From positions 1-64,000 of the forward strand of contig JBKAGE010000036.1 in NCBI GenBank assembly GCA_046290225.1: DNA of 64,000 bases, written 5' to 3'. The notes beneath the pieces were generated by a model that worked only from the letters and a program-made list of their open reading frames with translations, was not told the origin of the DNA and searched no databases. Below are positions 5,241 to 13,276 of the stretch, in pieces. The stretch's first letter is position 1; every line of letters starts with the position of its first letter. The translations under genes were made by a program, and so were the position numbers. This DNA is from Bradymonadia bacterium. GTDB lineage: Bacteria > Myxococcota_A > Bradymonadia > UBA7976 > UBA1532.

Positions 5241-5468
5241 AGGCAGCCAGAGAAGGCTGAAAGCGTGAGGGCTAGAGTTAAATCCCTGAGTACCTGTACC
5301 CTCGGGATCGGTCACTGCGTGCGGTGAGCAGGCCTGTGTATCACGGGTAGGGTTCGCGCCCTACGGCAGGAAGCCTAAAGCACCTAATCACCTTTCCCAC
5401 CTCTACTTGAGGTTCAGGGTTTTAACGGGTTGACCCAAGATTCGACTTTGGTTTTCTCTGTGCTGTCT
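5241..5468 (+). ncRNA. ssrS: 6S RNA
   Basis: Rod-like fold: 5241-5263 pairs with 5446-5468; central bubble; GTTAAATCCCTGA/TCAGGGTTTTAAC stem; 6S-type blocks GGTGAGCAGGCC, GGAAGCCTAAAG, CCCACCT, GGTTCA; has its own promoter and terminator. Confidence 0.82.
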
Positions 5469-10794: not shown

Positions 10795-12186
10795 GTGAGC
10801 ACTGACGTCACCCGCACCCTCATGAGATCGCCCGACCTCGAGCGACTCACCACCCGGACGTACACCCTCGAGGTCCTCGAGGGCCCTGATGCGGGTCTGA
10901 AGCTCACCACCGGCGCCCGCGTGGTCCGGATGGGCACTCACCCAGAGTGTGAGTTCGAACTCAACGAGAGCACCACCAGCCGCTTTCACGCCCGCATCGA
11001 GATCGATCCTCTGGGTCACCGACTCATCGACGAAACGAGCAAAAACGGCACCTTCGTGCACAAGATGCGGATCAAAGATCTATATCTGACCACAGACACA
11101 CGGATCCGCATCGGCACCAACATCATCCGATACACCCCAGGCAGTGATCAGGTGGAGATCTCGCTCACCCGGGAGCACCAGTTCGGTGACCTCCTCGGTC
11201 AGAGCGCCGCCATGCGGGAGATCTTCGCGGTGCTTTCGCGAGTCGCCCCCACCGACGCGACAGTGCTCGTGGAGGGCGAATCTGGTACAGGCAAAGAGCT
11301 GGTGGCTCAAGCCCTGCACCACCACTCGCAGCGCAGCGACAGCCCCCTGGTGGTCTTCGACTGCTCGGCGGTGAACCCCAGCCTCATCGAGTCCGAGCTC
11401 TTTGGCCACGTGAAGGGCGCCTTCACTGGAGCCACAGGGGCTCGCTCAGGGGCCTTTGAGCGGGCCGATGGTGGAACGCTCTTCCTCGACGAGATCGGAG
11501 AGCTGCCCCTCGATCTGCAGCCCAAGCTGTTGCGGGCCTTGGAACAACGGGAGATTCGACCCGTCGGTGGCAACCGCCCGGTGCGCTTCAATGCCCGCAT
11601 CGTCGCCGCCACGAACCGCAGCCTGCAAAAAGAGGCGCGCCTCAATCAGTTCCGAGAGGACCTCTATTACCGGCTGGCGGTGGTGCGTCTCGTGCTCCCG
11701 CCTCTGAGGCGCCGCACAGAAGACATCCCCCTGCTGGTCCGAGCCTTCCTCGATGAATTCAACACCCGCGGCGACACCCAGGTCCAAGTGGGCTACGACA
11801 CCATCATCAAGCTGCAAAAACACCCGTGGCCCGGCAACGTGCGCGAGCTGCGGAACTTCGTCGAGCGGGCCACCATGCTCGCCACCGACGATCGACTCGA
11901 GACGCGCTATCTCGCCCCACCCTCTGTCGGTGACACCCGAGACTCTGGTGTTCAAGCAGACCTGCAACCGGGCAGCCAGCCAGGGTGGGCTCTGATAGAC
12001 GAGGCTTTGCCTTTCAAAGATGCCAAGGCCCGTCTGGTCGACGGATTCGAGCGGGCGTACTGGCAACGTCTGCTCGAGAAGACCGAGGGCAACGTCAGCG
12101 CCGCGGCACGCATCGCCGGGGTGCATCGAAAGAGCGCTGAGTACCTGCTCAAAAAGCTCGATTTAAAGCCAGATCAGTCCGGGTGA
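10795..12186 (+). CDS. FHA-domain sigma54-dependent enhancer-binding protein
   Basis: [44 protein letters not shown]-terminal Fis-type HTH. Confidence 0.95.
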
Positions 12187-12197
12187 CTCACCAGGCT

Positions 12198-12224
12198 TTA
12201 CTTTTCTCCGTCACCAGCCGAAAC
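12198..12224 (+). promoter_or_regulatory. Putative sigma28 (FliA)-like promoter
   Basis: TTACTTTT-N11-GCCGAAAC versus consensus TAAAGTTT-N11-GCCGATAA; +1 would fall near 12232-12234. Confidence 0.45.
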
Positions 12225-12233
12225 TCCTCTCAT

Positions 12234-12545
12234 GCATCAGGTGCCCCGATGGGGCCTGTGCCTGACCAGGGACGCTCTTCGTCGAGATCCGGCGCTCCCC
12301 TGACATGGCGTGCATGAGCCGATGGTATCGAACGTGCTCGTCCCTCGACGGCGCAGATACAGGTTGACGATGCTTCACCCGGACTTCCAATTTGCTGGCG
12401 GTCCACAGCGTGCAGGCGTTTCAACGGTATCAGGCGTCGACGTCGCGAGCCTGAGGTCTCCTTCGGGCGCACCCATGTACTGGGCGGAGTTTCGTCTTTA
12501 CGAGCGGGCAAACTGGGGGCCAGGCTCTTTCAGAGCACCTGATGC
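12234..12545 (+). ncRNA. Candidate structured ncRNA (alternatively REP-doublet/MITE) bounded by 25-bp quasi-inverted repeats
   Basis: Perfect 11-bp IR GCATCAGGTGC/GCACCTGATGC; terminal hairpins with compensatory changes; T6 tract at 12546-12551; no credible ORF. Confidence 0.5.
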
Positions 12546-12607
12546 TTTTTTGCTTTCTGGAATGTTCGAGCGATCACTCGGGCGAGCTCAATCGCCCCAT
12601 CAGGCCC

Positions 12608-13276
12608 TCAGGCCTGATTGCGAGCCCTCACCGGGTTGGTGAGTTCGAGTCGCTCCATCCATGCCCCCTCTACCCGCTCCCGCAACCTGACGCTGACCTC
12701 ATCGCCATCGAGTAGAGGGCCCACGCCCTCTGGCGTGCCCAGCGAGACGATGTCTCCCGGGCTCAAGCGCATGATGGCGCTGATGAAGGCCAGCGCTTCG
12801 CCTGGAGGGAACATGAGATCGTCGAGGGTGCCCCGCTGTCGCACCTGACCGTTCACGGCGCAGCTCACCTCACAGGCAGACCAGTCCAGGCCAGAAACGA
12901 GGGTGTCGCTGATGGGGCAGAAAGTGTCGAAGCCCTTCGCCCGAGTAAAACGGCCCTTGTCAGCCCGCTGCAGATCACGGGCGGTGACGTCGTTGAGCAG
13001 CGTCCAGCCAGCGATGGCCTGCAGCGCCTCTTCTGGCGTGGCGTGGCTCAGGGGCTCACCCACCACGAGGGCCATCTCACCTTCGTGGTGCACCTCGTTG
13101 CTCTGCTCAGGCAAGACAATGGGCTCGCCAGGGCCGATGACAGCGGACTCAGGCTTGAGAAAGATGACCGGCCACTCGGGGATCGGGTTGCCCAGCTCGA
13201 TGGCATGAGCGCCGAAGTTTCGGCCGACACAGATGATTTTTCCGTTGGGAGGTCGGGGCGAGAAGGTCGGGGCCAT
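12608..13276 (-). CDS. Fumarylacetoacetate hydrolase family protein
   Basis: KIICVGRNF, FLKPES, HHEGEMA, NDVTARDLQ, RAKGFDTFCP, GTPEGVGP. Confidence 0.93.
   Translation of the reverse strand: MAPTFSPRPPNGKIICVGRNFGAHAIELGNPIPEWPVIFLKPESAVIGPGEPIVLPEQSNEVHHEGEMALVVGEPLSHATPEEALQAIAGWTLLNDVTARDLQRADKGRFTRAKGFDTFCPISDTLVSGLDWSACEVSCAVNGQVRQRGTLDDLMFPPGEALAFISAIMRLSPGDIVSLGTPEGVGPLLDGDEVSVRLRERVEGAWMERLELTNPVRARNQA

What the first reader, a model, noticed from the sequence alone, without database searches (positions are those of the whole stretch)
12198..12551. Unannotated 312-nt structured element with covarying four-way-junction ends, a sigma28-like promoter and a U-tract: candidate motility-regulon ncRNA
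Seen: the left end GCATCAGGTGCCCCGATGGGGCCTG (12234-12258) and the reverse complement of the right end GCATCAGGTGCTCTGAAAGAGCCTG (12521-12545) match at 20/25. Four of the five differences are two compensatory base pairs inside a 5-bp hairpin (GCCCC-gat-GGGGC versus GCTCT-gaa-AGAGC); the fifth is in the loop. The ends can therefore form a four-way junction: a 9-bp closing stem, two hairpins and a CTG/CAG inner stem. The interior offers further stems (CAGGG/CCCTG; GATAC-GTTGA-GATGC/GCGTT-TCAAC-GTATC at 12356-12431; TCAGGC/GCCTGA; CCCA/TGGG; a C-UUCG-G loop). TTACTTTT-N11-GCCGAAAC ends 9 bp before the stem and shares CAGCCGA with the promoters of the DGC and cheA genes. T6 follows the closing stem directly. 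It lacks the hallmark motifs of RNase P, tmRNA, SRP and 6S RNA, and no reverse transcriptase or transposase is adjacent. Inference: a stand-alone FliA-dependent large structured RNA. The alternative is a REP doublet/MITE between convergent genes.
Basis: partly seen in the sequence, partly recalled or inferred. Interest (0 to 1): 0.9.

Follow-up and report, generated by a model that had tools for sequence, protein, structure and literature searches.

The report
Unlisted rod-shaped RNA in myxobacteria relatives
This is probably the gene for a roughly 300-letter RNA that folds into one long, bulged hairpin, kept at the same place, at the same length and behind a housekeeping-type promoter in many related bacteria even though its letters change fast, and it matches no catalogued RNA family.

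Summary
It folds as one bulged rod 103 pairs deep (z -5.2 to -5.7); the terminal four-way junction costs 7.6 kcal/mol more and has near-zero probability. The promoter is sigma70-type (TTTACT-17-GAAACT), not FliA-type. Synteny found positional homologues in 16 more genomes (10 genera in all): 270-305 nt, only about 32-53% alike between genera, 95-117 pairs deep in 13 of 16, with a sigma70-like promoter just before the closing stem in 13 of 17 (0 of 17 at the other end), a shared apical bulge pattern (91 of 100 cross-genus pairs; controls about 50%) and compensatory changes in some pairs. Four carriers have no flagellin match. Contigs from RNA libraries of three studies hold the element; transcription, strand and ends are not shown. 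It is not the genome's 6S, SRP, RNase P, tmRNA, retron RNA or REP family. Best reading: an undescribed stand-alone RNA that works by shape, presenting an apical protein-binding site on a duplex of fixed length. The partner is unknown.

The parts
12197..12225 (+). sigma70-type promoter: -35 TTTACT (12197-12202), 17-nt spacer, -10 GAAACT (12220-12225); start inferred near 12232
   Evidence: score >=10 in 13 of 17 homologues 2-12 nt before the stem, 0 of 17 at the opposite end, 1.2% of interior positions; consensus hexamers recalled
12234..12545 (+). RNA body, 312 nt, one bulged rod 103 nested pairs deep with two side hairpins
   Evidence: RNA-library contigs at 12260-12517, 12270-12507, 12261-12447, 12284-12681
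12234..12244 (+). 5' strand of the 11-bp closing stem (pairs with 12535-12545)
   Evidence: pair probability 1.0; a 9-17-bp closing stem in most homologues
12535..12545 (+). 3' strand of the closing stem
12246..12313 (+).
   Evidence: no shared directional pattern across genera here (50 of 100)
12469..12533 (+). 3' arm of the basal rod
12314..12341 (+). side hairpin, not seen in most homologues (lineage-specific expansion, inferred)
12449..12468 (+). second side hairpin, not seen in most homologues
12344..12447 (+). apical arm: terminal loop 12390-12395, 3'-side bulge about 12405-12409, further bulges; the part whose layout is shared across genera
   Evidence: this RNA: true orientation beats flipped in 13 of 14; mean 14.6 against 2.5 for shuffled rods
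12546..12551 (+). T6 after the closing stem; not conserved as a U-tract (pyrimidine-rich only in most homologues; one T changed in run X10, whose contig reads on to 12681)
10795..12186 (+). upstream neighbour: FHA-domain sigma54 enhancer-binding protein (synteny marker, not part of the RNA)
12608..13276 (-). convergent neighbour: fumarylacetoacetate-hydrolase-family gene, whose 3' end the rod abuts in all 17 carriers

Best explanation
A stand-alone non-coding RNA of about 270-315 nt, made from its own housekeeping (sigma70-type) promoter on the + strand, that folds into a stable bulged rod about 105 base pairs deep and works by shape rather than by sequence: the long basal duplex is a spacer of conserved length whose letters drift freely, and the apical 60 or so rungs (terminal loop, 6-10 bp, a 3-5-nt bulge on the 3' side, about 10 bp, a 2-nt bulge on the 5' side) form a binding site for a protein that the RNA scaffolds or titrates. 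Shown by computation: single copy, rod fold, positional homologues, promoter, shared apical layout, compensatory changes in some pairs. Suggested only: transcription (contigs of RNA libraries). Inferred: strand, ends, protein binding, and the decoy or scaffold role. That it is a stand-alone structured RNA I put at about 0.8; that it acts as a shape-based protein ligand at about 0.5.
For: Rod fold z -5.2/-5.7. Positional homologues in 16 other family genomes; 95-117 pairs deep in 13 of 16 laddered; blind scan next to FAH 3' ends gives depth >=90 in 12 of 17 family loci with a gap against 5 of 140 unrelated FAH loci. + strand folds better than - strand by z in 10 of 12. Promoter in 13 of 17. Apical layout shared in 91 of 100 cross-genus pairs against 44-53% in six shuffled sets. 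Both-side changes above the independent expectation in 8 of 10 directed pair tests, and kept as pairs more than the null in 3 of 10 (best 22 of 27 against 11.1); 12 of 89 and 12 of 100 alifold pairs change on both sides (these pairs were chosen by a method that rewards covariation). A variant contig has 5 listed changes in 262 nt of the element against 17 listed changes and 16 gap letters in the next 136 nt. Contigs of RNA libraries from 3 studies hold the element; two stop at 12260/12261 where a DNA contig goes on, a weak hint of an end. No long conserved single-stranded seed (longest unpaired run 4-9 nt) and at most one unpaired GGA per RNA, which argues against base-pairing or CsrA-sponge action of the intact RNA.
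Against: No sequence similarity between this RNA and any homologue; a 4-sequence covariance model found only 1 further homologue (E 0.033) and not this RNA, so homology rests on position, promoter, size and layout. The three genus-g3 homologues fold branched, with weak z in two. 7 of 10 pair tests are not significant for kept pairs. This RNA scored 89, under the cut of 90, in the blind scan. Deep folds are not rare in this genome's gaps: 39 of 546 folded gaps reach depth 103, 8 of them single-copy (gaps were up to 520 nt long). One variant change (12518) breaks a pair unless its partner, not covered, also changed. Contigs cannot show strand, ends or level, and RNA libraries can hold DNA. No partner protein was found. 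No rod at this locus in 6 family genomes and in the other families looked at.
Confidence: 0.5

Rival explanations
1. It is an RNA-polymerase-binding DNA mimic in the manner of 6S or Ms1, a second such RNA beside the canonical 6S 7 kb upstream.
For: Rod shape with paired ends, housekeeping-type promoter, fast sequence turnover with kept synteny, and a length like Ms1 (~300 nt; Ms1 has extra short hairpins at its ends, PMC9130861 passages).
Against: No conserved central bubble: longest unpaired run 4-9 nt and mean unpaired fraction 0.22-0.31 in 17 rods, against 6-14 nt and 0.35-0.44 in 8 family 6S RNAs folded the same way (the contrast in run length is partial). No 6S or other Rfam match. The family already has a syntenic 6S.
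Confidence: 0.15
2. The rod is a precursor that a nuclease trims to a short regulatory RNA, as Pxr of Myxococcus is processed from longer forms.
For: Only the apical part keeps a shared layout; RNA contigs end inside the rod at roughly facing places (12260-12517, 12270-12507); Pxr processing is known in myxobacteria (PMC11928866 passages).
Against: No conserved sequence seed across genera; constant total depth is not needed for a precursor; contig ends are not molecule ends; no Pxr family match in Rfam.
Confidence: 0.15
3. It acts in cis on the convergent FAH gene, as an antisense or termination and stability element at the meeting point of two transcription units.
For: It abuts the FAH 3' end in all 17 carriers and stays with FAH when upstream genes change; one RNA contig runs from the rod into the FAH 3' end (12284-12681); the U-tract is not conserved.
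Against: FAH orthologues sit without any gap in G003 and G010; a 105-bp rod with its own promoter is far more than a terminator needs; the + strand folds better.
Confidence: 0.1
4. It is a decayed mobile or repeat element (REP doublet, MITE) or an orphan retron RNA.
For: Terminal inverted repeat between convergent genes; the genome has a REP-like palindrome family and two type XIII retron RTs.
Against: Single copy here and in each of 5 homologues tested in its own genome; no likeness to the REP family; strand-biased fold; the retron locus has its own inverted-repeat-flanked RNA region upstream of its RT, and 9 of 17 rod carriers have no such RT match.
Confidence: 0.05
5. One reading: a FliA (sigma28)-dependent motility-regulon RNA with four-way-junction ends.
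For: GCCGAAAC lies 9 nt before the stem; the genome has 2 FliA matches over cut-off and 8 flagellin matches; both local hairpins exist in the sequence.
Against: sigma28-like -10 in 2 of 17 homologues, sigma70-like promoter in 13 of 17; rod present in G013, G021, G014, G022, which have no flagellin match (77-94% complete), and missing at this locus in flagellin-bearing G003, G004, G006, G010, G027; CAGCCGA under-represented; junction probability near 0; a variant change at 12534 would turn a rod mismatch into a C-G pair while weakening the 3' hairpin (partner not covered).
Confidence: 0.03

Closest known systems
Ms1 RNA (Actinobacteria; binds RNA polymerase core)
   Same: About 300 nt, intergenic, found across genera by synteny where sequence similarity fails, paired ends (PMC9130861 passages).
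   Different: No conserved central bubble, different phylum and gene context, no Rfam match, polymerase binding untested.
6S RNA (RF00013)
   Same: Stand-alone rod-shaped RNA with a housekeeping-type promoter.
   Different: 270-312 nt against about 180-200; no open-promoter bubble; the family's 6S is a separate syntenic gene.
SRP RNA (4.5S, RF00169; long forms recalled)
   Same: Rod that carries an apical bulged protein-binding domain at the end of a long helix (recalled analogy).
   Different: No SRP model match; the genome's SRP RNA lies on contig C35.
Pxr sRNA (Myxococcaceae and kin)
   Same: Intergenic myxobacterial regulatory RNA; processed from longer forms; lying beside an enhancer-binding-protein gene is recalled, not read.
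   Different: Three short stem-loops against one long rod; arose within Cystobacterineae; no Rfam match here.
Retron type XIII msr-msd RNA (Mx162 clade)
   Same: Paired inverted repeats at the ends, similar size range, same group of organisms (PMC7736814 passages).
   Different: No contiguous RT; no separate msr hairpins and msd stem, the two arms pair along their length; not co-distributed with the RT.

Membership tests
6S RNA | match to RF00013 | tested here: not met
   genome's best 6S match is elsewhere, window 5251-5458
6S RNA | central unpaired bubble mimicking an open promoter | tested here: not met
   longest unpaired run 4-9 nt, not at a shared place; prediction only
6S RNA / Ms1 | binds RNA polymerase holoenzyme or core | not testable with these tools
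   needs RIP or gradient profiling
Ms1 RNA | about 300 nt with central bubble and short hairpins at both ends | tested here: inconclusive
   length met; end hairpins possible in this copy but disfavoured and not mirrored in homologues; bubble not seen
SRP RNA, RNase P RNA, tmRNA | match to the family model; role not already filled | tested here: not met
   each has its own gene elsewhere in G000
Retron ncRNA | contiguous reverse transcriptase gene | tested here: not met
   neighbours are an EBP and an FAH; the two RTs are on C79; no RT_XIII match in 9 of 17 carriers
REP/REPIN/MITE | many dispersed copies of the ends | tested here: not met
FliA (sigma28) regulon | conserved sigma28 promoter and co-occurrence with flagella | tested here: not met
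CsrB/RsmZ-type sponge | many GGA motifs in loops | tested here: not met
   0-1 unpaired GGA in each of 17
Y RNA (Ro60 partner) | Ro60/TROVE gene in the genome | tested here: not met
   TROVE match in 3 of 28 family genomes, none in G000
Protein-coding gene | conserved reading frame | tested here: not met
   two overlapping ORFs have no NCBIfam match and were not called by a codon model; 1-nt indels between close homologues; 16 gap letters in the 3' part of the 110-aa ORF in a variant

The most novel reading that the evidence does not exclude
A new class of bacterial 'ruler' RNA: a duplex of about 105 bp (roughly 30 nm) whose length, not sequence, is selected, holding a small apical protein-binding module at a set distance from its base so as to span or mimic a long nucleic-acid duplex for a machine such as RNA polymerase, the ribosome or a dsRNA/DNA-sensing protein; invisible to Rfam-style searches because its letters turn over within a genus.
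Probability: 0.25. Interest if true: 0.85.

Novelty: new variant of a known kind. Interest (0 to 1): 0.6.

Why it matters
Few large stand-alone bacterial RNAs are known, and each (6S, Ms1, SRP, tmRNA) acts on a core machine. This one is kept across at least 10 genera of an uncultured myxobacteria-related family, with constant length and promoter but almost no sequence conservation. It shows a kind of RNA gene that sequence and covariance searches miss, and gives a concrete target (a 312-nt RNA with 16 natural variants) for probing and pull-down. Its patchy presence within the family limits how central it can be.

Tried and rejected
BLAST of the element against 60 related genomes: no match. nhmmer against syntenic loci: none. 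Sequence-only multiple alignment of 12 rods: no usable consensus; MAFFT's structure mode was not available. Covariance model R1 from 4 apical segments: too weak to search genomes, so the range beyond the family was tested only by synteny: no rod after the 480-aa gene in 2 scorable genomes of the sister family and 4 of other families, nor beside FAH in 4 such genomes; one locus in each test ended at a contig edge. An 18-mer scan of viral contigs gave 2 hits with no likeness beyond the 18-mer, taken as chance. In the 3 RNA runs laid, no contig covers 11936-12203 or the FAH gene beyond 12739; absence of contig cover is not a finding and I do not count it. No joint suggesting a circular RNA was listed within the element (contigs show presence only). 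Flagellin upstream regions of G000 (5 of 8 looked at) showed no clean sigma28 consensus to compare with. A first attempt to locate gene ends by tblastn returned nothing and was redone from coordinates. Earlier-findings look-ups returned nothing.

Full report
Observation. The coordinates hold. The left 25-mer (12234-12258) and the reverse complement of the right one (12521-12545) match at 20 of 25, T6 follows at 12546-12551, and the element lies in a 421-nt gap between an FHA-domain sigma54 enhancer-binding protein (EBP) gene and a convergent fumarylacetoacetate-hydrolase-family (FAH) gene. It is single-copy in the 8.58-Mb genome: BLAST found no other match below E 0.2, and the right-hand 25-mer has one other site within 6 mismatches besides its partner. 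Rfam has no match at gathering score in the window, none better than E 3 near the element, and none on the rods in 11 homologous loci.

Fold. The + strand folds at -157.5 kcal/mol, z -5.17, 0 of 100 shuffles as good. The structure is one long bulged rod: 12234-12313 pairs with 12469-12545, two side hairpins branch off, and an apical arm 12344-12447 ends in a 6-nt loop; most helices have probabilities above 0.9. The two hairpins exist in the letters and the 5' one could form briefly during transcription (inference), but they are not mirrored in the homologues.

Homologues by position. BLAST found nothing in 60 related genomes. But the EBP orthologue and the FAH orthologue lie 2.1-2.7 kb apart in 12 family genomes, with two genes of 170 and about 480 aa between them that were not found in G000. 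Eleven of the 12 keep a gap of about 300-500 nt beside the FAH 3' end, and 5 more genomes show the same gap where the block is rearranged. These 16 gaps hold elements of 270-305 nt with paired ends; with G000 that is 17 of 28 family genomes, in 10 of 16 genera. Between genera they are 32-53% alike after alignment, close to noise for this GC content (12 sequences). Yet 13 of 16 laddered elements fold 95-117 nested pairs deep (this one 103); the three of genus g3 fold branched, and L010 was left out of that count because its ends were uncertain. In 9 of 12 tested against 40 shuffles each, z was below -3, and the + strand beat the - strand in 10 of 12. A blind scan beside FAH 3' ends gave depth 90 or more in 12 of 17 family loci with a gap (this RNA scored 89, a miss) and in 5 of 140 unrelated FAH loci; 142 of 160 control loci were long enough, and two of them, L185 and L186, which appear to repeat family loci, were set apart. 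Their titles say Myxococcales, which is my basis for calling the group myxobacteria-related; the class name Bradymonadia is my recall and comes from no call. Against generality: G003 and G010 have no gap, and G001, G004, G006, G009 and G027 have no rod after the 480-aa gene; none was seen at either marker in the other families looked at.

Promoter. A sigma70-like pair of boxes (consensus recalled) scoring 10 or more ends 2-12 nt before the closing stem in 13 of 17 elements, in 0 of 17 at the opposite end, and at 1.2% of interior positions; L072 has a good one 21 nt away. Here it reads TTTACT-17-GAAACT. A GCCGAWA-like sigma28 box occurs in 2 of 17, and CAGCCGA is rarer in the window than chance (10 against 19.7). 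G000 does have two FliA and eight flagellin matches, but four carriers of the rod (G013, G014, G021, G022; 77-94% complete) have no flagellin match and five genomes without the rod at this locus have 8-10. The FliA and motility reading is not supported.

Is the structure selected? In close pairs, 12 of 89 and 12 of 100 consensus pairs change on both sides (the method favours such pairs). In a fairer test, one sequence's confident pairs mapped on its partner, both-side changes exceeded the independent expectation in 8 of 10 directed comparisons and kept pairing more often than the null in 3 of 10 (22 of 27 against 11.1; 17 of 26 against 10.8; 9 of 12 against 5.3); 7 were not significant. Aligning the rods rung by rung from the apex, the true orientation beat the arm-swapped one in 91 of 100 cross-genus pairs among 15 elements (L071 and L073 left out as branched), and in 13 of 14 for this RNA; six shuffled sets gave 44-53%, and the basal 45 rungs gave 50 of 100 (the pairs are not independent). 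The shared layout is a 3-6-nt loop, 6-10 bp, a 3-5-nt A/C-rich bulge on the 3' side, about 10 bp, and a 2-nt bulge on the 5' side; this copy fits loosely. A 4-sequence covariance model found only L069 (E 0.033) and not this RNA, so homology rests on position, promoter, size and layout, not on letters. As a caution, 39 of 546 folded gaps of G000 (of 656 chosen, up to 520 nt) reach depth 103; 31 belong to repeat families and 8, this one included, are single-copy.

Expression. Of 22 runs listed I laid 4, all as contigs. RNA libraries of three studies hold the element: 12270-12507 (0 differences), 12260-12517 (2), 12261-12447 (10) and 12284-12681 (26, depth 213). Two stop at 12260 and 12261 where a DNA contig continues to 12185, a weak hint of an end. 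The deep contig has 5 listed changes in 262 nt of the element against 17 listed changes and 16 gap letters in the next 136 nt (4 of its 26 differences are not listed). Of the five, two are in a loop or bulge, one in a weak pair, one would close a C-A mismatch of the rod and one would break a pair; the partners of the last two are not covered. Contigs show neither strand, ends nor level, and RNA libraries can hold DNA, so transcription is suggested, not shown.

What it is not. The genome has its own SRP, RNase P and tmRNA genes, and a 6S candidate at window 5251-5458 that is syntenic in the family. The rods lack a shared bubble: unpaired fraction 0.22-0.31 against 0.35-0.44 for 8 family 6S RNAs. 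Five homologues tested are single-copy in their genomes, and the genome's REP-like family is unrelated. The two type XIII retron RTs lie on C79, one behind its own inverted-repeat region, and 9 of 17 carriers have no such RT. TROVE is in 3 of 28 genomes, not G000. Unpaired GGA is at most one per RNA. No coding signal holds.

Mechanism. The pattern, fixed length, free letters and a shared layout only at the tip, fits an RNA read by shape: a stable duplex spacer that presents an apical protein-binding site. This is inference; no partner was found. I give it 0.5, a polymerase-binding 6S/Ms1-like role 0.15, a processed precursor 0.15, a cis role on FAH 0.1, a mobile or retron remnant 0.05 and the FliA reading 0.03.

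Literature. Eight full-text searches listed no paper on such an RNA; two returned nothing at all. I saw passages only of PMC9130861 (Ms1), PMC11928866 (Pxr), PMC7736814 (retrons), 10.1101/2025.09.11.675593 (names a candidate M. xanthus sRNA, MXnc1, acting by base-pairing) and 10.64898/2026.07.10.737749; the rest as listings. The library lacks most subscription papers, and I read no supplements; lists of Myxococcus ncRNAs there, including the preprint's data files and a published survey I only recall, could hold a relative.

Verdict. Interest 0.6; a new variant of the stand-alone structured RNA kind, with a 0.25 chance of being a new length-selected class.

Noticed in passing
window 5251-5458 (+): 6S RNA candidate below Rfam's cut-off (34 bits, E 1e-4) with a strong sigma70-like promoter just upstream; syntenic 6S matches over cut-off in relatives.
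   Followed up: partly
G000, e.g. C40:66383-66823, C35:152679-153099: REP/REPIN-like palindromic repeat family (core CTGTAGCGGACG, about 45-105 BLAST sites) forming DNA-symmetric hairpins 120-170 bp deep, mostly between convergent genes. No transposase looked for.
   Followed up: partly
L065-L076, between the EBP gene and the rod: Two genes of 170 aa and about 480 aa with no Pfam family over cut-off, the larger one found in 49 of 113 class genomes, are not found in the 99% complete G000.
   Followed up: partly
G000:C79:173091-189783: Two convergent type XIII retron loci (two RTs, each behind SWIM-like and HEAT-like genes); one RT has an inverted-repeat-flanked non-coding region of about 330 nt upstream, the other follows its upstream gene directly with no room for one. 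Paired RTs recur in 7 other family genomes, one of them with a partial second match.
   Followed up: partly
G000 and family: 5-12 flagellin-domain matches per genome in 21 of 28 family genomes, and two FliA-class sigma factors in G000, unusual for myxobacteria relatives ('unusual' is recalled).
   Followed up: no
window 12599-12618: Perfect 8-bp hairpin overlapping the FAH stop codon; heavily changed in the variant contig of run X10, so probably not conserved.
   Followed up: partly
genus g3 (L070, L071, L073; G017, G024, G002): The only carriers whose RNA folds branched rather than as a rod are also the only family genomes with a TROVE/Ro60 match; three kin, so possibly coincidence.
   Followed up: no
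window 12234-12239 and 12537-12545; G000:C79 upstream of the first RT: The element's end letters share a 6-mer and a 9-mer with the start of the retron's non-coding region; likely chance, as homologues do not keep them.
   Followed up: no
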